A DNA stretch of 64,000 nt from Albugo candida (lineage: Eukaryota), in contig JBDOQK010000044.1 in the NCBI GenBank assembly GCA_040437565.1, positions 186,001 through 250,000 on the forward strand. The letters are read 5' to 3'. The notes beneath the pieces are model-generated. The model saw only the letters and a list, made by a program, of their open reading frames with translations, did no database searches and had not been told where the DNA came from. Of this stretch, positions 20,482 through 60,804 are shown in pieces. Position 1 is the stretch's first letter. Each line of letters begins with the position of its first letter. The position numbers and the translations under genes are program-made.

Positions 20482-23003
20482 GGGAATTGCTATTTCCACC
20501 CATCTTTCTGCTATTTCTACCCACAAATGTAACTTTTTGACCAATCAGATTATGACGTTATTGCCACACCAATTTTTACTATCTAAACCCACCTTTTTAT
20601 TATATGATTGGGCAAGATTAGTTTATGCAAATTCAGTTTTTCGTTTTACTTTGCTCACATGCATTTTGCCCACAAGATGAAAATAGTGTTGAGATCTTCG
20701 TGGGACATTTTCGGAGATCATGTTCCTCCCTGTTACATTTTTCACATCGCCGCTTAGGCTTCATTGCATAATCAAATGCTGACGGTTCGCGCTTTGTTGA
20801 GGAATTGAGAACCTTATTTTGGGCCTCAAGTGGACGTCCTTTCGCCTTCACGATAGATGGTTCAGCAAGGATTAAAAATTCCCACTTACCAATTCCGAAA
20901 ATCCTAGCATGAATGATTGACTGCTGGGCTGGCGAACAATTTAAATAGCGGCTTTCCAGTGCTTTCAAGTAGAGCTGAAAGGATGCGATGTTGTTCTGCA
21001 TGATGGAAACTTGGTTGGCCCCTTCCGCTATTGCACTGTAANNNNNNNNNNNNNNNNNNNNNNNNNNNNNNNNNNNNNNNNNNNNNNNNNNNNNNNNNNN
21101 NNNNNNNNNNNNNNNNNNNNNNNNNNNNNNNNNNNNNNNNNGGCGAACAATTTAAATAGCGGCTTTCCAGTGCTTTCAAGTAGAGCTGAAAGGATGCGAT
21201 GTTGTTCTGCATGATGGAAACTTGGTTGGCCCCTTCCGCTATTGCACTGTAATTAATGTCACCTAGGTGCCAAAGCTGGTGGATCAATGCTAGGGGTATG
21301 GGGCTGTTACAAATATCACGGATTTCATGCACACATGGTAATCCCATAGTACTCCGCAACGTACGACTACAGGCATTCTTCAAATCCTCTTCCGGTCTAT
21401 TGAATTGCTCTTCGATTTTTTTCAGAGCAAAAACGGAGACGCGTCCAACCAGCTGCTCATAACTTACACTACCAAGGAATACATGTGGGATTCGGATGCG
21501 CTCGCTGGCACTTTTTGCTTCAAGCTCCCGGGCTTGGTGCTAAATGGCTTGCTTCATTCTTGGCTGAACAAGATCCAGATTTCCAGTAGATTTTTGTAGG
21601 TACCGCTTTAAAGCTGAATGCGCTCCTTTAACCACCGACGTCGAAGTATTTCGAAAATGCATCGCCTTGTCTGTCCAGGCACGCACAAATTTTGCTTTAT
21701 GCGGAATCAGGTTTTCTCCAAATAGCTGACAACGTCCGATTTTCCAGCATACTTAATTTTAAATGTACTCTATCCTGCATCATAGTTTGCAATTGTCTTC
21801 AATCTACAAACATTTGTCCAACTTCCAAAAAATCCTCCCATTCCTCGTTTGTGCCAAATTCTTTCTTGCAATTCGCAGCTACATTTTTTTCGATGTGCCA
21901 CATGCATAGGAGATGTGAGTAGTCCGGAAGTATTTCTTCAATGAAACCAGCTAGTACGAAGTCGCGATCTGTCACCAGAACGTCTAGAGTTTGTACCAAC
22001 ATGTTTCACAACTGCTCAAGTGCCCATATATAATCTGCCTTCCCCTCCCCTGATAAAAATGCAAAGGCCAAGTAAAATGTTGAGTTCATTCCCGTTCGTC
22101 CAACAATGCTCAGCAGAGGCATCCTGAATCTGTTCGTTTTGTACGTACAATCCAAGAGAAGAATCCCACAATACCGGCGAGCTAAAAGGATGGATGTTGG
22201 ATGGGTCATGAACAAATGTGTGACGCGCCCATCACCGGTGGTTTTATCACTATACGTCCACGTGCTCGATGTGAGTTCATCCATCAAAGCCTGGATCGGG
22301 GACCTTCCTGCCAATTCCTTCAGACGACATTGAGCTTTGGCGGGGTAGAAGGTTTTCGCTGTAGCCAGAGATTCGGGAAATTCACGACGCAAAAGCGTTA
22401 GCCCCTGAAGTGCGGAGACTCCAGCTGATACGAGTTCCTGTACGCGGCCCTTTTCTTCTTCAGTCATTCTTCGGCATCATGGGTGCCCAGTCATACTCTC
22501 TGAAGGTTCATGATTGTGTTGGATGTTGCGCATTTTGACCTTCCAGCAACCATCTCCGTTTCTCTTTCCAAATGCCTCCCAATTACACCCCTGCAGTCTG
22601 GTTCCTGTTTTTCGTGTCTTTCCCTCAACGTTTCCAGCAGAGCGTCTCCTCAACTCCCCACCAAGATCACAAGCAAGCAAAACTCGCCTGTCTCCATCTG
22701 AACGCTTTATTGACACCCCATAGCCAGATTCACGACACACGTGGCGAACGTGTTCAATGAGCTTTTTATGTGTATTTTTTAAAAAATTAAATTTTTTTTT
22801 AGTGGCAAAAGATTGGTTGCAATTGATGGAATAGGACATTGATAAAGGTGGGTGGAAATAGTAAGAAGTTGGGTGGAAATAAAGCCCTAATCTGATTGGT
22901 CAGAAAGTCACATTGGTGTGGTAATAACGTCATAATCTGATTGGTCAAAAATATAAATTGGTGGGTGGAAATAGCAAAAAGATGGGTGGAAAGAGCAATT
23001 TTC
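20482..23003 (-). mobile_element. MULE/Mutator transposon, full-length with ~95-bp TIRs and a frameshifted FAR1-MULE-SWIM transposase
   Basis: The TIR gggaattgctatttccacccatc...gaccaatcagattatgacgttattgccacaccaat at 20482 is inverted at about 22912-23003. The transposase runs from ATG 22839: FAR1-like (...HNHEP), DCTYKTNRFRMPLL, VTDRD, CMWHIEKN, SWIM-like MGLPCVHEI and a C-terminal knuckle CEKCNREEHDLRKC. It has several frameshifts and one N gap. Confidence 0.92.
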
Positions 23004-27991: not shown

Positions 27992-30764
27992 CATTGCACA
28001 CCACCTATAATCTGTAATTTTTTAGGCCTTAGTGAATTCACTGCTCTTCACGCAAAAATCATCGCATAACAAAAAAAGACATTTTATATGATATATACAA
28101 TCTAGCGCAAAAAACTTGGATTTCAAATTGGATGATTTTTGGATAACTTATAAGACTCTAAAAGTTGCCTTGTTTCTCTAGATTTAACTAGTATTTCCTA
28201 TCAAAGCGTAAAAGTTGGCCGCCATCAGTGGGCAAATTAGGGTGTAGGGTTTAGGATTTTAGTACAAGTGTTATATATTATCTTTATATTATACTTACAG
28301 CTTCATACAGTAGCTACTAAAGCATTGCTATCTGTGTGAACGGAGTCTGGAACTCTTCGATGTGATCGNNNNNNNNNNNNNNNNNNNNNNNNNNNNNNNN
28401 NNNNNNNNNNNNNNNNNNNNNNNNNNNNNNNNNNNNNNNNNNNNNNNNNNNNNNNNNNNNNNNNNNNNGTGAACTGAGTCTGGAACTCTTCGATGTGATC
28501 GGTACTTTTTCATAGCATATTCCGCGGCTTTTCCGGTTAGATCTTCCCGACACACATCCATATAAAGGAACCACTTTCTAGCATGGCGAAGGATTGTTGC
28601 GAGCGACAATGAGGCAAGTGCTTTCGGAACTGTCGCGACCAATCCTTTTCATGTGTAATCGCACTTTTCCCTTGCGTATCGTTTTGCTTCCCCCACAAAA
28701 GCTTTCTATGAAAAAATTAAATTCGCAATGAAATTTGGGGTAAAATATGATGAGTTGTCCCGCCGCGTTGATTGTCTCTTCCAACAAATCTTTTTGAGCT
28801 TTAAAGTCTGGCTGGTTCTGAATAACACTGCGGCCGCAGCAGCTACCTGTGTCACCACATTTACCCCGGCAATGAAGGTTTGTCGTCCTGAGGTTGCGTT
28901 CCTTTAGGAGGATCTTTATGCCTTTCAGTTGTCCGGCCAGAGGATGATCTGCGGGAGTACCATGGATTGCGATGTTTCATCTCCAAACATTCCATTCCGC
29001 ATCACCGGTTGCTTTCCTCCCGGTCCAAGATTCATCCGTTGAGACACGAGAGCATCTTCAGCAAATGCTGCGTGGCTAGTCCCATTGTCGAAAGCGAAGA
29101 GAGCTTTTGCGTTGGGAAACTGCGCATCGAAAATGGTAATTGCAGCATCCCGGACTTGCCTTTGAAGGTCTTCCGAAGTCCATTAAACATCATAGTTCTT
29201 GCCGATAATGTGATTATGCAAGCCTCTCCTGGAAGATTGCTGTGTTGAAGCTTTTTTTTTGCTCAAATCTAGTCGACCCCCTTGAATAAGACAAAATGTT
29301 AACTCTTGATCAAAGTAATGAGTTAAAAACTCTAAAATAAGATACTTACCAAAATCACTCAGGAAATTGCTGACATGTATCGATCTCCCAGCCCCCTTCT
29401 TCCGCAGTGGCTGTTCGCCATCAGGAAGCCATACCTTCTTCTGGCCATCATGGGCGGCAAATATGCTTTCATCATGCGTCACTAAGATGATGTCATCTCT
29501 GGCAGGCCAAATCTCCGATTCCATTTCCGGTCCAAAACATTTCGGCATAAATGGCTCAAAGAGTCTCATTCATTCCAAAAAATTGAGTACTATATGCCAC
29601 AACATCTTCTCGTTCATTGCGATCAACGTACATGCCTTTCTTCACTTCTGAATAGCGTAGTCCAAGTAACTTCATCCAGTGGGTCACAGTGCTGAGGTGG
29701 ATTGATGCGGTGGGATCAATTTCTGGAAGTATTTGCTCGTTGACATGCTTGGTAAAATCCGTTGGTACTACGCAGAACTTTTTGTTTCGAAGGTAAAGCC
29801 GCACATCTGCAATGACATCTTCATCCTCTAATAAACTGATTGTTTAAACATGCTTTCCCTGCTTGCCCTCGGGAAAATAACCAGTTTCAAGATATAAACG
29901 TCCCCAGCAACGAAGCATCTCGGCAAACCAACGCCCTTTTCCATTCGCCGCCGTAATTATTTGCGAGGCAGCAACTCTCTATTTTGCAATCACGATAGAC
30001 CGTTAAGAAATAAAATAAGATTGCGCTAGAGAATATGCAAATGAATTAACTTACCTCACTGCCACAGAGTATAAGCCTGAAGTATCCTGTAACAGAGGCA
30101 ATACGCAGCCGGATAATTGCCTCCTTTGATTCATTTTGTTTTCCCAGTTTCACAAACGCTCTACGAAGATTTTTGTGAGAATAAAGAGGTCTTTCACCTA
30201 TCGTGTCCTCGCTTTCAGAGTTTATAGGCTGACGCTGTGTGGCTTTTGCCTTGAAGTATGTCTCTAGCTTTCTTGAACCAATGGATGCTTTTCCTGCGCT
30301 TCTCTTTTGCACCGCTTCGTTCTGTCGGAATCTTCAAGGTACCGAAAAGGTCGTTTATAAGCAGAATCAATGTTCACAATAATGGTGTCCGTTTGCTCTT
30401 CCTCAAAATCCTCGAATTAAGCTTCTAAATCCGCCTTTATATGGCGCTCCTATTTTCGATAGTTGAACTTGATATATTTCCCGCTTTTTTCGTCTTATAA
30501 GCAGCCCTTTCATGTGACGTTGCTGTTTTGATGTTCGAGGCATGCTGCTTAGATCAATAGGCTGGCAGGAAAAAAGGAGTGTGTTTTGTTGTCAAATGAG
30601 AAGGATGGGTGGTATCAGGATTAAATGTGATTGGGGAAAAAGCTGTTCGGATGGTATTGGGGGTTGAATTTACGCCAATTATATTTGATGAAGGTTTATG
30701 TTTGATGATTCTTCAATTTCGGCCGCAAAAAATAATGATTACAGGTCATAGATGACGTGCACTA
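27992..30764 (-). mobile_element. IS630/Tc1-mariner-like transposon, near full-length, with an intron-containing transposase pseudogene
   Basis: 27-bp TIRs (20/27 match) flanked by TA. ATG at 30543. Motifs: KKGMYVDRNEREDVVAY, ILVTHDESIF (D1), LFAFDNGTSH (D2) and IIFYPKFHCEFNFFIE (E). Putative GT-AG introns lie at 30054-29979 and 29349-29281. Confidence 0.9.
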
Positions 30765-34900: not shown

Positions 34901-37696
34901 ATAGCTCTGCCATCTTTTTCCTGATATTCGAAATATGTGATAAGTGTGACCAGTGTCTCATTTACCTGTATAGAGCCAAAACCTCCCCACACACAGCCTC
35001 TTCTCTGTAACCGAAGATACCCATGAACTGGATAGATGAGTCAACATATTCCTCATTTTGCATTCCATATCTTCAACGTCGAAATTATCATCGAATGTTC
35101 ACATCGAAGGTGATGGTTCCGAATCACGCAACAAGAGCTGAATTTTCGAGTGGTCTTTGCAAAACCCGCTTTTTTTTAATTGCGTTGTTGTGACACAATT
35201 CTGAGTTCGCAATTTTCACTTATTATCATTACAGAGCCGATGGATTTTGATCGCGGAAAAACTCTGGAATCAATGTCAATTTTTGTACGGGATCCATTAG
35301 GAGCGTTTCGTCTAGACGGTAACCTACTGTAAGCACATTCGGGGATCAAATGGACGGACCGTTTTTCGCAATTAAACAAATCCAGTTCGTGCTGCATCGA
35401 AGAAGGAAGCTATGGAATGTCCAAAGACTAACAGTCCAACTCAATCTGTACATCGCATTTGATTGAGATAAATATATATGCTCATCACTCACATAGTGAC
35501 ATTCATGGCAGGTTGCAGGATTTATTTACGAGAAAGAAGATACAGCGAATATAAACGACAGCGTCAATTCATACTTTTGTTTGAACAACACACACAACGA
35601 CATCAACGCGGCTGCGATCAGCACGAATGAATTCATGGTTACCAGCTCTTTTGTTTGTTTGAATGGCACTTGACTGAATATGGCTGGGTGACGTTGCATT
35701 GATAACCTTTGTCACACTAGCAGTACTCTTTCTTTTGCATCCGGGTTCCAGATTATGTGCAATTTTATGAAGAAGTGTCATAGTTCCATGGCGAGTTATT
35801 CGGTCGATCGCAAGATGAGAACGCTTTATCGAGAAGATGGAGGACTACCTTGAGTTACATTCACGTCACACTTGTCGTATGTTGTTTGGGATCTGACTGG
35901 GCTAGCAATATTGTGCGTATGACACTATGAGCGATGCATGAACATCATGTCCCTTAGGTAGGATTGCATACAAAATTCTTAAGTTAATTATTGATACCAT
36001 GAAGGCTAGCAGTTTGACGCAAATATTATGAAGTGGAACTGTCACGGCAAGGCAAAATGTGCTCCGGACATAAGCTACGACAGTGAAGCTGATTGCAGAC
36101 TTTATGCACTACTAGATGCTTTTTAAATGCGCTAGACACGAAAGCTCTATATTTGAGAAGTACATTCATTATATTAAAGACCGGAAGATCTAATCTGCTG
36201 CAAATTTATCGCAGAAAAGTAATGGTGCTAGCCGTTAGACTCACAACGCTAGTGGAGTCGTGGTTGGAATCGATTGTTAAACAAAATTGTATCTGTTTGT
36301 TAGCAATCATCATCTACATGTCCAGATACCTAGTTCCAGGATTATTGATGATTGGCTTATCAGATGTGTTGTTTTCTTTGGAATTGAAAGACGTCAGCAT
36401 CTCCTCGAGTAGTTTCTAAAATGTGTAGAATTTTTGTCGCACTATGTGGCATGTCTAGATTCGGTATTGCTGGCTTGAAATATGTCAACCGACGTTAGAA
36501 ATTATCATGCCTTATACTCTATGCTATACATTCTTACCTGGAATAAAAGTATCCTTGAGAACTTACACATCTCATGGCAAAGAAGGCATTATCGTACACA
36601 GCATAGATATATTTTATGCGTTTTTCCCACATTTCTAATGCCCCTATGAGGATTGAACGTGTTTACCATCGTCTAAAACGCTTGTGTACGTATTGAGAGA
36701 ATAGTACAATACGCGCAGTTCGAAATTGAGTACATATTCAGTGATGCAAGATGTTTCTCCAGTCAGTAAATTGGGCCATCCGAATAGCAATGCAAATCGC
36801 TCATAGAACAAGACTTCTATCTGTAATGTATAATGATCGGTATAGTAAGCTGCAATATGTTACATTATATCTAAAATCCCAATACATTGGCGGCATTAGC
36901 CGACATATGAACGAATGTGCAGCTTGGAAATGAAATTTCTTTGCTACGTTTTTTTGCAAAAACTCTTCACTAAATGCATATTATTCAACAAAAGCGCACA
37001 GAAACTTGGCTGAAAGGTATCGTTGCAATTATACGTATTGAACCAAGCAAGCTTATGGATACCTATTTACCTGCGATACAACCAAACGTTAGAAATGTTA
37101 GGAGCATTGTTTCCAAGGCACAAATGCTCGATCAGGCTAGAAATTTCGAGATACTCTTTTCAAGAAGGTGAGCTCTCCAGCCGTTTCATTCATGCATCAT
37201 AAAAATAACATAATGTTCATGCTTATGTAAANNNNNNNNNNNNNNNNNNNNNNNNNNNNNNNNNNNNNNNNNNNNNNNNNNNNNNNNNNNNNNNNNNNNN
37301 NNNNNNNNNNNNNNNNNNNNNNNNNNNNNNNAGCTCTCCAGCCGTTTCATTCATGCATCATAAAAATAACATAATGTTCATGCTTATGTAAACTTAAGAT
37401 TGCCAGGATACAAGGTGGGCAATTCAAAGCATGCACTATTTAAACATGCCACGATTTTTAGGCTAAAATTAGCATTATCAGAGGAAGTGTTGTGTGAATA
37501 TAGCATATGCCGCTTGAAAAGTGTATTTACTGCAAAATACAGAGAGCTGCTGTCACTGGATATATGTTCACATCGCTGAGCAGTAAATTATGGATTATTA
37601 CGGTAGATTCTGGCCTTTTTCAGACGTGATTGTTCAACCGCGGGGTCGAACGCAGCTAATTGTTTGAACTGGTTGAGTGCAGAATAACAAAATTAT

Positions 37697-52492: not shown

Positions 52493-54655
52493 ATGCTTTC
52501 CAGTCTTATCGTAACGTATGAAGGATCAGCGCTGTCCTGCGATACGATTGACTTGACATACCGCTCAGCGTCTGCAAAGTCGGACAGTGCAAAGGACGTA
52601 GTTCTTATACGTTACCAGCGGCGATCGGGTGAGAGCGAGTCGTTGAAAAGTGTGTTACACGGACAAGGAAAAGTACTTTTCTGCACAGGTCTTTGCTATG
52701 AAGGGCACTTTGTGTACGGTAAAATGCACGGGCAAGGGCGGATGGAGTGGCCTAATGGCGCTCTATATGAAGGTGAGTTTGTTGCCAATATGATACAAGG
52801 AAAAGGGACGTTTACATGGCCAAATGGAAATCAGTATTCGGGCCACGTCAAAGCAGGGATACGACATGGAAAAGGAAGCTTTACTTTCAAAAGAGATGTG
52901 AATGGACCAAAGCCCGAACAATTAAATTTGGAAGAGGAAGTCAAATGCCAAATATGTCATTACGACGGTGAATGGAAAGAAGGGCTTTATGACGGGTGGG
53001 GCACACTTATTTATGATGTAGACGCACATCTTAGATACGAAGGAACGTTCGTACGAGGCAAACGCCACGGGCACGGAATTATATGCTATGCCAATGGAAA
53101 TTGGTACGAAGGTGCTTGGGCCGATGACCAGAAAAGCGGGTTTGGAGTCATGACATGGAAAACTGTCAAGCAATCATTGAGAAACACGGACGTATTAAAG
53201 TCTCACGCATTAGTCACACTGGAAAAGTATGAAGGTGAATGGAAAAACGATGTTCAGGACGGTATCGGTCGACTTGTCTATTTTCCAAGTGTCTCAGAAG
53301 GAGAGAATGTGCCCGATCCATCCTTCTCTTTGTGCAATTGGTATCAGGGTGAGATGAAGGAAGGCCTCCGCCATGGAATCGGGGTCTTCCACTATGAAAA
53401 TGGCTCGAGGTATGAAGGCGAATGGCAGTATAATGTTAAACATGGTTTGGGAATTTTTGTATCAGAAGATGGTCGCATCACTGTCGCACGATATCGACGA
53501 GATCACAATATCGAAGTGATCCATTCCAGTGCTTGTTCAATTCCTACAACGAATGCCGCCATGCTGGGTGGTCTCCCACTCTACATTGACGATCTCGGCG
53601 AAATTAACGCAATTTGGCGAAAATCATTAGTGAATGCGACACTCCGCTACAATGCCGACCTCAGCTCTTTGTATCGGACGTACAGCACCGAATTGAATGA
53701 TGAAATGAGTCGAAATCCACGACCTATGATGACGACTTCAGAATGTAGAGGTCTACTGCAGGATGCACAATTCGATTGCACCGAAGGTCATTTTGAAAGA
53801 TTGCTGAATCAAGTACGAAAATCCCAACGGAAACAGGCTGTAGCATCGTTTACAAAGTCTGTGGAAGGATCGAGCCTCATTCAGTCTTTGATCAAAGTCA
53901 TTCGATACTGTCAGGCAGTTCAATGGCACACTCCGATTGTGTCGATGAAATCGGTCATTTTGTATCGCGAATTTGTGGAGCTTTTGATTCGATTCACTTA
54001 TTACGAAAAAACAGAGAACTTGAGACTTTTTCATTCTGAGCCGACGTCTCTGCCGGAGGTATTCACACAATTTATTGAGCAGAGACTCTGTCCTTTGCAA
54101 AGTATCCGAAAGAAAGAAAGTGTTTTGCGAAAGCGATTGAAAAGCGTATCAGTGCAAAGAGTTCTTAAAAAGCACACAAATTCTCTCACAAAAGCGTTTG
54201 AATATTGTTATGAAAAACAATGTCCGATGCGCGTGCGAGAAACAGCCAAAGAGATGGAAATTGAGGAAGAGGAATTACTGTTTTTGGTTTGTGATAAAAC
54301 CGTATCAATTCGATCGCTTTTGGAGTTCCTAGTACAATTTAAAATACCAAGCAAAATGGAGCCATTTTTGGTCCAACAAATGACTCAAAAAGTTGGAAAT
54401 GTTTTATTTTGTCATAAGAGCGAGTGCAATGCGACTGAAAGCGCGTGTCAATGGATCAAAGATTTCTGCTTATCCGACCGATTGTCTCGCACGGATTTTG
54501 AAGAGGTGATAGCAGTAGTTGCATTCGATTCAATGAACAGCGGTGAATCCTCATCCGATTCACAATTTGCTGCAATTTTGGACGCCTTCATTGCAACTGA
54601 ATTCACACATTTTTCCATCGGAATGGAACCGGGTACCGTACCTTCCAGAATGTGA
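52493..54655 (+). CDS. RSPH10B: MORN-repeat protein, radial spoke head 10B-like (720 aa)
   Basis: About 10 MORN repeats (YEGxFxxGxxHGxG) follow an N-terminal LIVTYEG. A helical C-terminal region with ILYREFVELLIR matches RSPH10B architecture as I recall it. Confidence 0.7.
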   Translation: MLSSLIVTYEGSALSCDTIDLTYRSASAKSDSAKDVVLIRYQRRSGESESLKSVLHGQGKVLFCTGLCYEGHFVYGKMHGQGRMEWPNGALYEGEFVANMIQGKGTFTWPNGNQYSGHVKAGIRHGKGSFTFKRDVNGPKPEQLNLEEEVKCQICHYDGEWKEGLYDGWGTLIYDVDAHLRYEGTFVRGKRHGHGIICYANGNWYEGAWADDQKSGFGVMTWKTVKQSLRNTDVLKSHALVTLEKYEGEWKNDVQDGIGRLVYFPSVSEGENVPDPSFSLCNWYQGEMKEGLRHGIGVFHYENGSRYEGEWQYNVKHGLGIFVSEDGRITVARYRRDHNIEVIHSSACSIPTTNAAMLGGLPLYIDDLGEINAIWRKSLVNATLRYNADLSSLYRTYSTELNDEMSRNPRPMMTTSECRGLLQDAQFDCTEGHFERLLNQVRKSQRKQAVASFTKSVEGSSLIQSLIKVIRYCQAVQWHTPIVSMKSVILYREFVELLIRFTYYEKTENLRLFHSEPTSLPEVFTQFIEQRLCPLQSIRKKESVLRKRLKSVSVQRVLKKHTNSLTKAFEYCYEKQCPMRVRETAKEMEIEEEELLFLVCDKTVSIRSLLEFLVQFKIPSKMEPFLVQQMTQKVGNVLFCHKSECNATESACQWIKDFCLSDRLSRTDFEEVIAVVAFDSMNSGESSSDSQFAAILDAFIATEFTHFSIGMEPGTVPSRM

Positions 54656-54689
54656 TATTCGTATAGCTGTTTACGGTAATGAAAATATA

Positions 54690-56617
54690 ATGACGCAAGC
54701 GGTATCACCTGCCAAAGTATCTGCTGATGCATCGTGTTTTCCACTGCCTAAAAACTCCAAACCACCTCGAGACGGACCAAAACGTAACCGCAGCGTGTCC
54801 ATATCGATTATTTCGTGCCACCACCGTCGGCTTCCAAAACTTAAAACACGAAATCGAATGAAAAAACTACAGCTCCAAACACCTCAATCTTGCAATGAAT
54901 ATAACGACTCCACATCGACCTGCAGTAGTCCTACTCCGCCTAATCGCAACATAATAAGACATTCTTTCTCACAGTCAGCTGATACTCCAACTCGAGCGTC
55001 AGAGTCACAACTTCGAAATGCAATTCCAATGGAGCCAAAATCCACGCAGCCGCATCTTTTTTCTTTGGCAGATTTCATATATAAAGAGATTTTTGGTATT
55101 TACGATATCAAAGCGATCGACGGAGTCCACCAAGAGCGCGTCCAAAACTTTTTAACGATTCCATTTCACCTCGAATCAGTATGGCAATCATCTGACTCTC
55201 TGATTCCATCTTTTAATTATCTGATTCTCTGGATAGCTGATGATATTTGGGATATTTCTCGCAATGGACAGCTTTCTGTTCATTTTCACATACCTTCCAA
55301 TGCGTTTGTTCTTTGGATTCGGCTCTATTTTCGCTTCAAGTTCTCATATTCAGCGATTTTGTCGAACACATTTGTATGACGTTATGGTCGCTTGGCTTCT
55401 CCTTATTGGCGTCTTTGTCTTATTACAAGTCGATATGTCACGTGTATATCACGCCATCCGTGGGCAAGCAATGATCAAACTCTACGTTCTCTTTACAATG
55501 ATCGAAGTAAGCTGAAATTTATACTTACAGGCGTGAGGCCTTAGGCCCCGGCTTTTGAGTTTGACCGATTTTACATGGTAGATATTCGATCGGTTGTTCT
55601 GTTCGCTCGGTCAAGACATACTGGATTCACTGTATTACACTGCGAGATTCCAACCAAATCGCGTGATTCGCTTATTATTGGAATTCATTGTCGCCAGTCT
55701 TTATGTCGATATCCTCTCACAAAATTTCATTTTTTCGATACGGACCTCATTTGAATGTTTTCTTGACCACATTTCTACTTTTGCATTCGTTACTACTGTT
55801 TGTACAGGTCGTTACCGTCCATGTCGCCATCAATTCGAGTAATTCCTCGCTGTTGACGCTGTTAATTTCCAACAATTTCGCGGAATTAAAGGTACAATTT
55901 TTTGGTCTATTGATACGACTTCCAATTAAGTTATTCGTTTTGGCGGCAGAGCTGTGTGTTTAAGAAATTCGAAGAGCAAAACCTGTTTCAAGTGAGCTGT
56001 AGCGATATTGTGGAACGCTTCAAATTACTTCTTTTCCTCGTACTCATTCTGCTTCAATCAATGACACGCGACGCATTTTACGGAACGGTATGAAAACATT
56101 GCTTTCTCCTTAAGCTTTTACACACTCACAATCCACAAAGGCGATGGTAATGCTTGCAGAAATGGTCATTGACTGGCTCAAACACGCTTTCATCACGAAA
56201 TTCAATCAGATCTCACCGCTTGTGTACTCGAAATTCACGACCATTTTGTGTCACGATCTCACCGGCTGGCAAAACTCCAACACGATTCTAGATCATACGC
56301 ATCACGTGTCAAAGCGTCTGGGTCTACTATCCTTGCCTCTGGCTTGTGTGGTGATTCGAATGCTATTGAAAACAATGTGTTCCCGATTCAAACAAAATCC
56401 CTTCAACAGCGATGTATCCGATCCATTGGAAATACCTCATGGAATCGCGGCATTTGACATTCTCATTGCACCACTACTCGCAACTTGGAGCTACCTTCCA
56501 AGTATCCTCATCTTTTTCGTATCATTTCTCTGTCTGGCAGCTCTGAAAATGCTTTTGAGCTTATCGCTTTTCATTTTCGCCATAAACGCCAAACAAATTA
56601 ATTCACAGAAATCGTAA
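54690..56617 (+). CDS. TAPT1: TAPT1/POD1/Emp65 (DUF747) membrane protein (6 exons, about 537 aa; intron 3 is AT-AC)
   Basis: Exons 54690-55178, 55237-55506, 55582-55708, 55779-55891, 55950-56087 and 56141-56617. Motifs: YHAIRGQAMIKLYV, DRLFCSLGQDILDSL, LLISNNFAELKSCVFKKF, SDIVERF and DWLKHAFITKFN. The start codon is uncertain (54690 or 54858). Confidence 0.92.
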
Positions 56618-56713: not shown

Positions 56714-59700
56714 TTAGGCAATTTGCAGTCGGGGAACACGACAAACGCCCAAATGATCGACTTGTTTATCCATTGGATTCGATTCCATCGCTGTGGCCAC
56801 TTCCAAATCCATTTGCGGGAAGCGTTTAGCAATCCGCGCGGTGATTCTTCTTCCATTAGAGCTGTTCTTCATCGCGTTCAAATGAGGACAAATGGCGGTC
56901 ACCAGCGCCATACATTGAGACTCGGCGCACACACACAATGCTCGTTGGACAACGTAATTGGCAAACTGATCCTGGAGCAATCGCTGCATCTTCGCACATC
57001 CAATTAATTCTTCGACATATCGTCTTCGGATGCGTTCAGGCGCTTTTTCCAAACACTTTTCCACGACATTAGAACTGAATTTCTGAACAGATAATTCAAA
57101 CACATGACCGAGAGGTTTTATCATAATCCCAATCGCTTCTTCGGCCGTGCAGGCGTCCAAAACATATTGCACGACATAATTACCGTAAGGATCTTGCATC
57201 AATTTCATTGCGTGATTTTCCACTTGTGCGATCAATTCCTTCTTTTGTAAGGTGTTGGCCGCGTCCAAACATCGCTGTAACACACAACATCCATGTCGAT
57301 GCGTTCCAACTGTCGTGCATTCTCGAGACACAGCGTCGAATATAAATTGTGTGGATTTCGATTGAAAATATTGTAAAGCTCGCTGAATGACGTGATTCCC
57401 ATTCGAGTCGATACACAAACGTACAGCGTCATCTTTCAATGCTTCCACAACCAATTCCGACAGATCCATTCCATTCTCTTCATTCGAANNNNNNNNNNNN
57501 NNNNNNNNNNNNNNNNNNNNNNNNNNNNNNNNNNNNNNNNNNNNNNNNNNNNNNNNNNNNNNNNNNNNNNNNNNNNNNNNNNNNNNNNACAGCGTCATCT
57601 TTCAATGCTTCCACAACCAATTCCGACAGATCCATTCCATTCTCTTCATTCGAATGCTCCGACTTTGTATTGGCACATATTTCCACCACTTTTTGAACAG
57701 AACGCGTTCCGTGCAAATTCAAAGCGGCAGCCATTAAATGCGGACAAACAGCACGCACAATTGCTAACCGTTGCCATTCATCCGCTCGTGCAATCAGTTT
57801 CTGGAACAGATAATTACCAAATGGATCGACCATCATTTCAGGTAAATGGTCGAGTGATTCCTGGAAGATAATTTGCCATAAAACTTTACGATCGTCGTAT
57901 TCCAATTGTTCTTGTAATAATCGACAGCCATTCTGATCTTTCGACATGGAGTACACTCTTCCTTTGATATCTTCTTCGGAAATTGCCGATAGATTGCAAC
58001 CAAGTGTGTTGGCACTCAAAGGACCGGATCGCGTCGTTGATACATGCGGCATACCATTACTGTTCTTACGGGAGACGTTTGGGTACATTTCAATCGATTC
58101 TTCGATGGCATTGGGATACATTCCGGGCGCGTCTGGTACCATACACGATGGAAGAGGTACGGGTGATTGCATCGCGTACATATTCTGAGGCGTGGGTCCA
58201 TGTGCGTATCTGCATTTATTACCGAGCCGACAATGTCCCTGGAGGTAAAATTTGCAGANNNNNNNNNNNNNNNNNNNNNNNNNNNNNNNNNNNNNNNNNN
58301 NNNNNNNNNNNNNNNNNNNNNNNNNNNNNNNNNNNNNNNNNNNNNNNNNNNNNNNNNNGCACTCAAAGGACCGGATCGCGTCGTTGATACATGCGGCATA
58401 CCATTACTGTTCTTACGGGAGACGTTTGGGTACATTTCAATCGATTCTTCGATGGCATTGGGATACATTCCGGGCGCGTCTGGTACCATACACGATGGAA
58501 GAGGTACGGGTGATTGCATCGCGTACATATTCTGAGGCGTGGGTCCATGTGCGTATCTGCATTTATTACCGAGCCGACAATGTCCCTGGAGGTAAAATTT
58601 GCAGAATTTGAGATTGCATGGAGGTAATCGATTGATATGAATCATGTTTGGATGTGGTAATGTATTCACAAATGTCGGAACGGGAACACGACGATACGAG
58701 TCGATTGACGGTGTCGACAGCATGGATGCATTTGGTCGAATTCTCACTGGGTACGGCATTGCAGTATTAAGGTCGTAATTTTCATGAAAGGATCTCGTGA
58801 GATGAGAAGGAACAGGAGCGAATGGAGGTGGGAAGTTAGCCGGATTGAGGTTCCATGGGACTACAGGGAATGGATACGCTTCCATTGTATTTGGATAGTC
58901 GTGATCGAGTGAGCGATTGTACTGAGTGGGATCATAATTTGGCTCATAATGAAAGAGTCGAACATCTGCGGGTTCATCGGTCCATTCATTGACAGGATTG
59001 AGTGAGGTGCGTTGTGAAGTGTCTTGGAGGTGTGCTTGTGTACCGGGTAAATGGCTCGCATGTGTGGTGAGGTCGGATCCTCTTGTTGAGTGAGAGAGAT
59101 TTCCATCGAGAGAGAACGTTGGGGGAAGGTAGATGGATCTTTGAGAGGTTGAAACACATGCTTTAGCGACATGGGTAGAAGCTGTATCGCCATTTTGAGT
59201 TGTGTGAGAGGGTATGGAGTCTGTATGAGCCTTTTCATCTTTCAAGTTCAACTTGAGAAAATGACTTCCTAATGCTTGACTTGGTGATTGCGAGAGAAAC
59301 ATTTCGATGCTGTTTTTGCGTGGATTGTGGTTTATAGCAATGGATTCCATCAAATTGCCACTTTTCAGTGTATTGAGAGCTTTTTTTGATTGAGTTGGCT
59401 CTAGTTCTAAGAATGAACTTGAAAATGATGAATTTGATGTGGATCGGTTCGAATGTGTACCTTCGTGCAACAACGATTTTAATGATGTTGACCGTGTGGG
59501 TGGTGCATTGAGGGACGACGGATGAGGAATTGGTTTTGCTGGAGAAGTAGTTGTGTATGGAACGGGTGCAAATAATGAGTTTGTTCCGTTTCCAAATGCA
59601 AAAAAGTTTGGCGAGGAGAGACTGAGTCGCGTTTCATTAGTACCATCTTCAGTATACGTATACTGATCGTCTGAAAAGTGATTCTCTCGAGAAGGAATCT

Positions 59701-59935
59701 GACTGGTTGGATGCTTTTGTTGCGTGCGTCCAAATCCATTTCGGTCTTCTTCCTTGAGATCGTCGTCTTCTATTTCTGTCGAATTGGTGCTGCATTCTTC
59801 CATTCCATTCGTTCGATGTTTTGTACGCGTGTTGTAAACCATTTCAAAGTGTTTTGAGGATGCGAGTGTTTTATCTAACGTATTGATCGGCAAAGTTGTG
59901 TGGTCGGACGAATTCATAGAGGAAGGCGCCATCAT
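56714..59935 (-). CDS. Pumilio/PUF RNA-binding protein with an upstream CCCH zinc finger (about 902 aa after collapsing two gap duplications)
   Basis: Eight PUF repeats (DQNGCRLLQ, DPFGNYLFQ, NLHGTRSVQ, DSNGNHVIQ, HRHGCCVLQ, DPYGNYVVQ, QKFSSNVVE, DQFANYVVQ) and CKFYLQGHCRLGNKCRYAH. Removing the two gaps plus the 66-bp and 247-bp duplicated flanks leaves one 2709-nt ORF. Confidence 0.9.
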
Positions 59936-60804
59936 TCCTCCTAGGCCAAATGTGCAATAATGAAAAGTATGGTACAGCGCGCAGCAACTGTGTAATTTAC
60001 AAGTGACAAATCCTTCTAATGTTTCGATTCGCTGATTGATTGATTTATGTGACGGTTTATAAAATTCACTCGAGTCGAAACGGGTGGACCAATAATTGAG
60101 GAAGGAGTGGTGGAGGGTGAGGGGTACCTCTTTCAAAAACGAGGATATTGCTTCAATGAGGGAAGGAAGATTGGCAATTGCTTCATGCACTGAAAGTCAC
60201 GCGCAAGAGAACAATGGCAGATACGAGTGATGAAACAAGCTGAGCACGGATGCAAAGACTATGCGTATGATCGACTGTACTGTTGATTTTTGACCGCGCT
60301 TTCGAACAACGAAGTGTCCTTTTTTATGTACAAACCACTTCTACCACATATATTTACATATTTATAAGTAGAATATGATTGGTTCAGAATCAAACATCAT
60401 ATTAGCAAGGAAAAAGGATTGGATAGAGAACGTGTAATGTAACCTGTAACCTGATCATTCTAGAAAATCAAATCAAAATCAAGTCATTGTGCTTATCTTT
60501 TCCATCCGACTGTTACCTTGCTTATTTTGTATCACTTTTGGCGGTCAATTTAGCCATGAAGATTTTGTTTCAATAATCCTCACTAATCTNNNNNNNNNNN
60601 NNNNNNNNNNNNNNNNNNNNNNNNNNNNNNNNNNNNNNNNNNNNNNNNNNNNNNNNNNNNNNNNNNNNNNNNNNNNNNNNNNNNNNNNNGATTTTGTTTC
60701 AATAATCCTCACTAATCTAATACAATTCTACAACACTCGCGTATCATAAAAAGTGACAGGTTTTTGCGTCACACTTTCAAATCAAAGCTTCCAAATCAGA
60801 AAAA

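What the first reader, a model, noticed from the sequence alone, without database searches (positions are those of the whole stretch)
55709..55778. Probable U12-type (minor spliceosome) AT-AC intron in TAPT1
Seen in sequence: the frame jumps between ...VASLYV and LHSLLLFVQ. The 70-nt interval starts ATATCCTCT (U12 donor consensus RTATCCTT), carries TTCTTGAC about 12 nt from the end (U12 branch consensus TCCTTRAC), ends in TAC and contains no AG. Splicing it gives SLYV-V-LHSLLLFVQ, restoring the DUF747 helix. An in-frame GT-AG alternative (55705-55807) also exists; it would delete VVLHSLLLFVQ and is probably what a gene finder would call. Inference: this compact genome retains a functional minor spliceosome, which is known from some oomycetes.
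Basis: partly seen in the sequence, partly recalled or inferred. Interest (0 to 1): 0.72.

Follow-up and report, generated by a model that had tools for sequence, protein, structure and literature searches.

The report
Minor-spliceosome AT-AC intron in Albugo TAPT1
The 70-base interval is a real intron of the rare "minor" (U12-type, AT-AC) class in the TAPT1 membrane-protein gene of the white-rust pathogen Albugo candida; it is removed exactly as predicted, and it is an expected kind of intron for an oomycete, though the public gene model misses it.

Summary
The window is Albugo candida. Transcript-like contigs from 3 of 3 runs of one study join 55708 to 55779, skipping 70 bases with AT..AC ends. 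They also remove the four GT-AG introns of the gene. A DNA contig keeps all five introns. The intron starts ATATCCTCT, has TTCTTGAC with its A 12 bases from the end, and holds no AG. Splicing gives unbroken Pfam DUF747 cover (profile 51-92, junction codon, 94-130). It also restores a segment with an invariant His that is conserved in oomycete, fungal and animal homologues.

The in-frame GT-AG alternative appears in no contig. The deposited protein skips exon 3 and is fused to the upstream MORN gene.

Gene-model errors at the same codon in Thraustotheca, Lagenidium, Globisporangium, a Mucoromycota fungus and two chelicerates suggest an ancient conserved position. TAPT1 is a known minor-intron gene in human and maize.

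Minor snRNAs could not be sought because no genome is held. U12 splicing is already known in oomycetes, so this is a new member of a known kind, of modest interest.

The parts
54690..56617 (+). TAPT1/DUF747 coding region of Albugo candida, six exons. The start codon is either 54690 or the in-frame ATG at 54858. The stop codon is 56615-56617.
   Evidence: Exon translations hit Pfam PF05346 DUF747 in profile order. There is a 100% match of exon 6 to an A. candida protein. The spliced model is an open frame of 537 aa from 54690. Transcript contigs start at 54682-54689 in two runs, so the 5' end and true start codon are uncertain.
55179..55236 (+). Intron 1, GT-AG, 58 nt
   Evidence: Joint 55178^55237 in contigs of X1, X2 and X3; not in the DNA contig X6.
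55507..55581 (+). Intron 2, GT-AG, 75 nt
   Evidence: Joint 55506^55582 in X1, X2 and X3.
55582..55708 (+). Exon 3 (IFDRLF…VASLYV plus the first base of a Val codon). It is omitted from the deposited protein model.
   Evidence: Pfam DUF747 profile positions 51-92. Present in the transcript contigs. Absent from P0001.
55709..55778 (+). U12-type AT-AC intron, 70 nt, phase 1
   Evidence: Joint 55708^55779, 'skips 70, AT..AC', with no shared letters at the joint, in X1, X2 and X3; the DNA contig X6 is continuous. No AG inside.
55709..55717 (+). 5' splice site ATATCCTCT. It matches the U12 donor consensus ATATCCTTT at 8 of 9 positions; position +8 is C instead of T.
   Evidence: The consensus is as given in PMC2846911.
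55760..55767 (+). Branch-site motif TTCTTGAC. It matches the U12 consensus TCCTTRAC at 7 of 8 positions. The presumed branch A at 55766 is 12 nt from the last intron base.
55779..55891 (+). Exon 4 (last two bases of the Val codon, then LHSLLLFVQVVTVHVAINSS…AELK)
   Evidence: Pfam DUF747 profile positions 94-130; transcript contigs.
55892..55949 (+). Intron 4, GT-AG, 58 nt
   Evidence: Joint listed as 55889^55948 'cut +2' in X1, X2 and X3, which is 55891^55950.
56088..56140 (+). Intron 5, GT-AG, 53 nt
   Evidence: Joint listed as 56086^56140 'cut +1' in X1, X2 and X3, which is 56087^56141.
55705..55807 (+). Unobserved in-frame GT-AG alternative (103 nt) that encloses the AT-AC intron. It would delete V-V-LHSLLLFVQ, including the invariant His.
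   Evidence: The sequence and frame fit. No such joint in any of the 4 runs laid. Its donor GTCGAT differs from the GTA… donors of the 4 confirmed GT-AG introns.

Best explanation
Window 55709-55778 is a U12-type (minor-spliceosome) intron of the AT-AC subtype, in phase 1, inside the DUF747 domain of the Albugo candida TAPT1 gene.

Shown: the pre-mRNA is cut exactly after 55708 and before 55779. The resulting mRNA encodes …VASLYV-V-LHSLLLFVQVVTV…, the conserved form of the protein.

Inferred mechanism:
- A U11/U12 di-snRNP recognises the donor ATATCCTCT and the branch motif TTCTTGAC together.
- The A at 55766 is the branch point, 12 nt from the 3' end.
- U4atac/U6atac.U5 then joins, U6atac replaces U11 at the donor, and two transesterifications remove the lariat.

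If the intron is retained, the frame runs into a stop 44 codons later. Correct minor splicing is therefore needed for a full-length protein.

The intron most likely descends from an ancient U12 intron at this same codon in TAPT1 genes of other eukaryotes.
For: (1) Junction. The joint 55708^55779 has AT..AC ends, skips 70 nt and has no microhomology. It sits in one contig each of runs X1, X2 and X3, and the same contigs also lack the four GT-AG introns. The DNA contig of X6 is unspliced.

(2) Motifs. The donor ATATCCTCT and the branch motif TTCTTGAC 12 nt from the end, with no AG in the intron, are seen. This is the only site in the 64 kb window with the full composite. EST-supported Phytophthora AT-AC U12 introns have the same layout: ATATCCTTT… TTCCTTAAC… AC (supplement 2 of PMC2846911).

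(3) Protein.
- Pfam DUF747 profile positions run 51-92 in exon 3 and 94-130 in exon 4, leaving exactly one position for the junction codon.
- In the alignment, 13 of the 16 other oomycete proteins (P0002, P0004-P0010, P0012-P0016) have …YVVLH[SA][LM]LLF[AT]QVVT….
- The His is conserved in fungal, nematode and arthropod homologues: 146 of 161 aligned rows have no indel in the 32-residue window, and 108 of 118 arthropod-centred hits keep Y-x3-H-x6-Q-x3-LNVAxN.

(4) Position conservation, inferred from mis-modelled proteins at the same codon.
- Thraustotheca reads 'YV|DIL', Lagenidium reads 'YV|DIQ', and Globisporangium has an 11-aa deletion.
- Jimgerdemannia reads 'YM|RILS…', a 36-aa insertion.
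- Nymphon striatum reads 'YV|SIL…' and Centruroides reads 'YV|CIP…'.
- D-I-L, R-I-L and S-I-L are what N|ATATCCT or N|GTATCCT gives when read through in phase 1.

(5) Literature. TAPT1 is a validated U12-intron gene in human and maize (passages of bioRxiv 10.1101/2020.07.18.209528). It is a human U12/U2 twintron gene (PMC3564746, section 3). Minor snRNAs and U12 introns are known in Phytophthora, Hyaloperonospora and Saprolegnia (passages of PMC2396436, PMC2846911 and PMC10639083).
Against: - Dependence on the minor spliceosome is not shown. No whole genome is held and the window has 0 Rfam matches, so no U11, U12, U4atac or U6atac of Albugo was seen, and no minor-specific protein either.
- The donor departs from the strict RTATCCTT rule at +8 (C for T), and the branch motif departs at one position (T for C).
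- The composite motif alone arises by chance in about 1 of 6 windows (48 of 300 simulations).
- The three spliced runs belong to one study. Their RNA nature is the tool's guess, supported only by the five spliced introns. They are contigs, not reads, so isoform proportions and retention cannot be judged.
- Conservation of the position rests on protein models, not on DNA of those species. Some anomalies carry no U12 signature: Timema P0369, Strigamia P0360 and Parasitella P0073 (which reads 'GKL', as from GTAAGC). One distant metagenomic relative (L001, 39% identity) has no intron here.
- The papers read do not give the position of the human or maize U12 intron.
Confidence: 0.92

Rival explanations
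1. It is an AT-AC intron removed by the major (U2-dependent) spliceosome. Such introns exist as a rare class.
For: The AT-AC ends and the junction do not by themselves say which spliceosome acts. No minor snRNA of Albugo was seen. The donor and the branch motif each have one departure from the U12 consensus.
Against: U2-type AT-AC introns carry U2-like donors, not TATCCT (recalled knowledge: Wu & Krainer 1997, not read here). This donor has the full TATCCT core, plus a U12-type branch motif at the canonical 12-nt distance. The four U2-type introns of the same gene look quite different, with GTA… donors and …AG ends. The same codon appears to hold GTATCC- or ATATCC-type donors in other lineages that have minor spliceosomes.
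Confidence: 0.04
2. The gene is spliced, wholly or in a meaningful share, through the enclosing in-frame GT-AG intron 55705-55807. That would make the site a U12/U2 twintron like human TAPT1, and the AT-AC form only one of two isoforms.
For: The GT-AG pair exists and keeps the frame. Human TAPT1 is listed as a U12/U2 twintron (PMC3564746). Contigs drop rare variants (text). The Globisporangium ultimum protein model has exactly this deletion.
Against: No joint 55704^55808 appears in any of the 4 runs laid. The product would lack the invariant His and 10 more conserved residues. The donor GTCGAT is unlike the four confirmed donors of this gene. The Globisporangium deletion is more simply a gene-finder error.
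Confidence: 0.08
3. The junction is an artefact: reverse-transcriptase template switching, a mis-assembly, or an intron-less DNA copy.
For: Only assembled contigs from a single study were seen, and the RNA label of the runs is a guess.
Against: The joint shows 0 shared letters on the two sides, so there is no repeat for template switching. Three runs give the same joint. The same contigs remove four canonical GT-AG introns precisely and continue into the native flanks. The product is the conserved protein.
Confidence: 0.01

Closest known systems
U12-type AT-AC introns of Phytophthora sojae and P. infestans (Russell et al. 2006, recalled, not held; Bartschat & Samuelsson 2010, PMC2846911, passages and supplement 2)
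   Same: Same class and same layout: an ATATCCT… donor, a TTCCTTAAC-like branch motif 10-15 nt before a terminal AC, short length, and an oomycete host.
   Different: The host order is Albuginales. The gene is different: the flanks of the three listed Phytophthora introns per species do not fit TAPT1. At 70 nt it is shorter than the Phytophthora AT-AC intervals listed in that supplement. Donor and branch motif each depart from the consensus at one base.
The U12-type intron of human TAPT1 and its maize homologue GRMZM2G347645 (bioRxiv 10.1101/2020.07.18.209528) and the human TAPT1 twintron (PMC3564746)
   Same: It is the same gene family and the same intron class. An enclosing U2-type alternative is also possible at the Albugo site.
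   Different: Whether the position is the same could not be checked: the passages read give no position, and no animal or plant DNA was available. Use of the U2-type alternative was not seen in Albugo.
Pan-eukaryotic minor-intron catalogue (Larue & Roy 2023, PMC10639083; passages, and one supplementary file searched)
   Same: It reports small numbers of minor introns plus minor snRNAs in Phytophthora and dozens in Saprolegnia, some at positions shared with distant species.
   Different: Albugo does not occur in the main text or in the one supplementary file held (0 occurrences). Other data files of that paper were not visible and may include it.
U2-dependent AT-AC introns
   Same: AT-AC termini.
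   Different: Those lack the TATCCT donor core and the U12 branch motif. This intron has both.

Membership tests
U12-type (minor spliceosome) intron, AT-AC subtype | AT at the 5' end and AC at the 3' end, used in vivo | tested here: met
   Joint 55708^55779 with ends AT..AC in 3 of 3 spliced runs.
U12-type (minor spliceosome) intron, AT-AC subtype | Donor consensus /RTATCCTT | tested here: met
   The donor is ATATCCTC(T). Positions +1 to +7, including the TATCCT core, match. Position +8 is C, not T, so the strict '5' rule' quoted in PMC2846911 is missed by one base.
U12-type (minor spliceosome) intron, AT-AC subtype | Branch-site consensus TCCTTRAC about 10-15 nt upstream of the 3' splice site | tested here: met
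   TTCTTGAC at 55760-55767 matches 7 of 8 positions. Its A is 12 nt from the last intron base.
U12-type (minor spliceosome) intron, AT-AC subtype | Splicing depends on U11, U12, U4atac and U6atac snRNPs | not testable with these tools
This is inferred from the motifs.
U12-type (minor spliceosome) intron, AT-AC subtype | The organism encodes minor snRNAs and minor-specific proteins | not testable with these tools
   No whole genome is held and there are 0 Rfam hits in the 64 kb window. These components are known for Phytophthora and Hyaloperonospora (PMC2396436).
U12-type (minor spliceosome) intron, AT-AC subtype | The position is shared with U12 introns of orthologues | tested here: inconclusive
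   The evidence is indirect. Read-through or deletion errors fall at the same codon and phase in protein models of 3 other oomycetes, 1 Mucoromycota species (R-I-L-S) and 2 chelicerates (S-I-L, C-I-P). No DNA of these species was seen. The position of the human and maize intron was not found in the papers read.
TAPT1 / DUF747 (Pfam PF05346) membrane protein | Match to the Pfam profile above the gathering score, across the protein | tested here: met
   Exons 2-6 score 31.5 to 119.7 bits each (cut-off 25). They cover profile positions 3-50, 51-92, 94-130, 131-170 and 191-313 of 315.
U12/U2 twintron | Both a U12-type and a U2-type intron are spliced from the same position | tested here: inconclusive
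   The U2-type pair 55705-55807 exists in frame. Its joint is absent from all contigs laid, but contigs can hide rare isoforms.

The most novel reading that the evidence does not exclude
The Albugo intron is a surviving copy of a U12 intron that already sat at this exact codon and phase of TAPT1 in the last eukaryotic common ancestor. On this reading it is still present in oomycetes (AT-AC subtype), Mucoromycota and arthropods (GT-AG subtype), and by extension in the known human and maize TAPT1 minor introns. It would be one of the few minor introns kept even in a reduced obligate-biotroph genome, perhaps because slow minor splicing, or a nested U2 alternative (twintron), sets the level of this ER membrane protein.
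Probability: 0.45. Interest if true: 0.45.

Novelty: new member of a known kind. Interest (0 to 1): 0.3.

Why it matters
The finding gives transcript-level proof that Albugo candida, an obligate biotroph with a compact genome, still performs AT-AC, U12-type splicing. This extends a feature known from Phytophthora, Hyaloperonospora and Saprolegnia to the Albuginales. Four searches found no paper reporting U12 or AT-AC splicing in Albugo: 'Albugo'+'U12' (2 papers), 'Albugo'+'spliceosom' (21), 'Albugo'+'AT-AC' (4), and 'oomycete'+'U12-type'+'minor spliceosome' (9, none naming Albugo).

It also exposes a concrete annotation error. The deposited protein is fused to the neighbouring MORN gene and lacks exon 3 and the conserved His segment. 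Matching errors appear in other oomycete, fungal and arthropod TAPT1 models. This shows that gene finders without AT-AC or U12 models systematically damage this gene.

The apparent sharing of the intron's codon and phase across three eukaryotic supergroups would add a well-anchored example of an ancient minor intron.

For a specialist none of this is surprising.

Tried and rejected
- **Whole genome.** It is not held, so the search for U11, U12, U4atac, U6atac and minor-specific proteins could not be run. Rfam on the window found nothing.
- **Sequencing runs.** The look-up of sequencing runs listed no holder on record as RNA. The RNA nature of X1-X3 rests on their five spliced introns. Only X1, X2, X3 and X6 of the 11 listed runs were laid.
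- **Metagenome scan for relatives' DNA.** It returned 1 locus (L001, 39% identity, 61% GC). That locus has no intron at the site, so it says nothing about oomycete intron conservation.
- **Cluster members.** The listing of cluster members on the deposited protein did not complete because the database is switched off. Whether another public Albugo model is correct is therefore unknown. The word-based search listed only P0001 for Albugo.
- **Papers.** Russell et al. 2006 is not held. 'At1g67960' (8 papers) and 'Phytophthora'+'U12-type'+'conserved position' (0 papers) gave nothing on the intron position. bioRxiv supplements are closed; they may give the primer and intron positions for human and maize TAPT1.
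- **Indel count.** It was off by one residue because of an alignment gap, so only individual rows (P0206, P0212) were used from it.
- **Signature regex.** It gave 20 matches, of which 4 are at the junction. The other 16 lie elsewhere, mostly in a conserved 'Y-x-DIL-C' motif of exon 6, and are unrelated.
- **Earlier-findings look-ups.** They returned nothing on this genome or on TAPT1.

Full report
**What is there**

The window comes from Albugo candida. Exon 6 of the gene in question is 100% identical to an 'unnamed protein product [Albugo candida]' (P0001).

The + strand from about 54690 to 56617 encodes a TAPT1/DUF747 membrane protein. Translations of exons 2 to 6 each pass the Pfam PF05346 cut-off. 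They cover profile positions 3-50, 51-92, 94-130, 131-170 and 191-313 in order.

The finding's coordinates are exact:
- 55709-55778 is 70 nt long. It begins ATATCCTCT and ends CTAC.
- It contains no AG.
- TTCTTGAC lies at 55760-55767, with its A 12 nt from the last intron base.
- The reading frame shifts between …VASLYV and LHSLLLFVQ.
- Joining 55708 to 55779 creates a G|TT valine codon in phase 1.

**Is it more than chance?**

The motifs alone are only moderately unusual. RTATCCTY has 11 matches in the window against 6.8 expected. The full composite (donor, then a branch motif 9-15 nt before a terminal AC or AG, within 40-300 nt) is found once in the window, at this site. It turned up at least once in 48 of 300 Markov simulations. 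Other evidence decides the matter.

**Transcript evidence**

Eleven public runs hold the gene, and none is on record as RNA. I laid four of them. In X1, X2 and X3 (one study, 'RNA?' by the tool's guess) a single contig per run covers the gene and lacks five intervals:

| Joint as listed | True cut | Bases skipped | Ends |
|---|---|---|---|
| 55178^55237 | same | 58 | GT..AG |
| 55506^55582 | same | 75 | GT..AG |
| 55708^55779 | same | 70 | AT..AC |
| 55889^55948 (cut +2) | 55891^55950 | 58 | GT..AG |
| 56086^56140 (cut +1) | 56087^56141 | 53 | GT..AG |

The AT..AC joint has no shared letters across it. The contig of X6 runs through all five intervals unspliced.

Removal of four canonical introns in the same molecules shows that these contigs are spliced RNA. 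So the predicted junction is real.

None shows 55506^55808 or the MORN-to-TAPT1 joint implied by the deposited model.

Limits of this evidence: it comes from one study, and from contigs rather than reads. Rare isoforms and intron retention cannot be judged.

**Protein evidence**

The AT-AC product reads …EFIVASLYV-V-LHSLLLFVQVVTVHVAINSS….
- In the alignment, 13 of the 16 other oomycete proteins read …YVVLH[SA][LM]LLF[AT]QVVT…. These are P0002, P0004-P0010 and P0012-P0016.
- Fungal, nematode and arthropod homologues keep Y-x3-H-x6-Q at this place. 146 of 161 aligned rows have no indel in the 32-residue window. 108 of 118 arthropod-centred hits match the strict pattern.
- The GT-AG alternative would remove 11 residues, including the invariant His.
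- Retention of the intron gives a stop 44 codons on.

The deposited protein P0001 (1071 aa) is wrong in two ways. It fuses the upstream MORN-repeat gene (52493-54655) to TAPT1. It also jumps from …LFTMIE straight to VVTVHV…, omitting exon 3.

**Which spliceosome?**

The TATCCT donor core and a TCCTTRAC-like motif at 12 nt from an AC end are the hallmarks of U12-type introns. EST-supported Phytophthora AT-AC introns printed in supplement 2 of PMC2846911 have the same layout.

The four U2-type introns of the same gene start GTA… and end …AG.

Two departures must be stated. Donor position +8 is C, not T, so the strict 'RTATCCTT' rule quoted in PMC2846911 is missed by one base. The branch motif has T where the consensus has C.

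Dependence on U11, U12, U4atac and U6atac is an inference. No genome is held for this window and the window has no Rfam match. Minor snRNAs are reported for Phytophthora and Hyaloperonospora (PMC2396436). Minor introns are reported for Phytophthora and Saprolegnia (PMC2846911 and PMC10639083).

**Is the position old?**

I had no DNA of other eukaryotes, so I used gene-model errors as a proxy. Errors fall exactly at this codon in several models:
- The Globisporangium ultimum model has the 11-residue deletion.
- Thraustotheca clavata reads YV|DILFNF and Lagenidium giganteum reads YV|DIQF. D-I-L is what G|ATATCCT gives when read through, just as Albugo's own frame reads VDILSQ.
- The Mucoromycota fungus Jimgerdemannia flammicorona has a 36-residue insertion starting YM|RILS, as from C|GTATCCTTTC.
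- Parasitella has an insertion starting GKL, as from G|GTAAGC, which is U2-like. Mucor velutinosus, Acaulospora and Umbelopsis models are also disturbed here.
- A profile search seeded with nematode proteins found P0206, which reads YV|SILLLW and then skips the next exon. A follow-up search names it 'Protein TAPT1 [Nymphon striatum]', a sea spider.
- The scorpion Centruroides model reads YV|CIP and skips the same exon. Spodoptera exigua and Tigriopus models break at the same point.

In all these cases the break follows Y-[VM] plus one base. That is the same codon and phase as in Albugo.

Some evidence does not fit, or adds nothing:
- Timema (P0369) and Strigamia (P0360) are disturbed here without a U12 signature.
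- A distant metagenomic relative, L001, has no intron at the site.
- The back-translated bases are my inference, not observed DNA.

TAPT1 is a validated U12-intron gene in human and maize and a human twintron gene. The passages I read do not give the position of that intron.

**Novelty**

U12 introns and minor snRNAs in oomycetes have been known since 2006-2008. No paper in the library links Albugo with U12, spliceosomal or AT-AC splicing. The searches were 'Albugo'+'U12' (2 papers, both unrelated), 'Albugo'+'spliceosom' (21) and 'Albugo'+'AT-AC' (4). Albugo is also absent from the text and the one held supplement of the pan-eukaryotic survey; other files of that survey were not visible.

This is therefore a new, well-supported member of a known kind. 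It carries a useful annotation correction and a probable case of deep positional conservation.

**Verdict**

Interest is modest.

Noticed in passing
window 52493-56617 (+): The deposited A. candida protein P0001 (1071 aa) fuses the upstream MORN-repeat gene (ORF 52493-54655, 7 MORN matches) with TAPT1. The transcript contigs show no joint linking the two genes, and two of the three start at 54682-54689. The fusion looks like an annotation error.
   Followed up: partly
window 60084-60148 (-): There is a second AT-AC-like candidate: ATATCCTCG … TCCTCAAT, then 12 nt, then …CCAC, 65 nt in all. It lies upstream of the first ATG of the long ORF 58016-60196 (minus strand), probably in a 5' leader. 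Its branch motif is weaker. There is no transcript check.
   Followed up: no
window 57489-57588, 58259-58358, 60590-60689, 21042-21141, 37232-37331, 28369-28468: Six of the 13 runs of exactly 100 N have the same sequence repeated on both sides of the gap. These are overlapping contig ends joined with a spurious gap. Three of them break up the minus-strand gene(s) at 56714-60196 and duplicate protein segments in the ORF list.
   Followed up: partly
window 56714-60196 (-): Convergent with TAPT1 is a long minus-strand coding region with Pumilio-repeat-like and CCCH-zinc-finger-like stretches. This is judged by eye from the ORF translations. Its 3' end abuts the TAPT1 3' end, and the contigs of X2 and X3 run across both genes.
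   Followed up: no
proteins P0003, P0011, P0017, P0024, P0073, P0206, P0303 (other organisms): Public TAPT1 models of Globisporangium, Lagenidium, Thraustotheca, Jimgerdemannia, Parasitella, Nymphon and Centruroides are all damaged at the same codon. This suggests a systematic gene-finder failure at a non-standard intron.
   Followed up: partly
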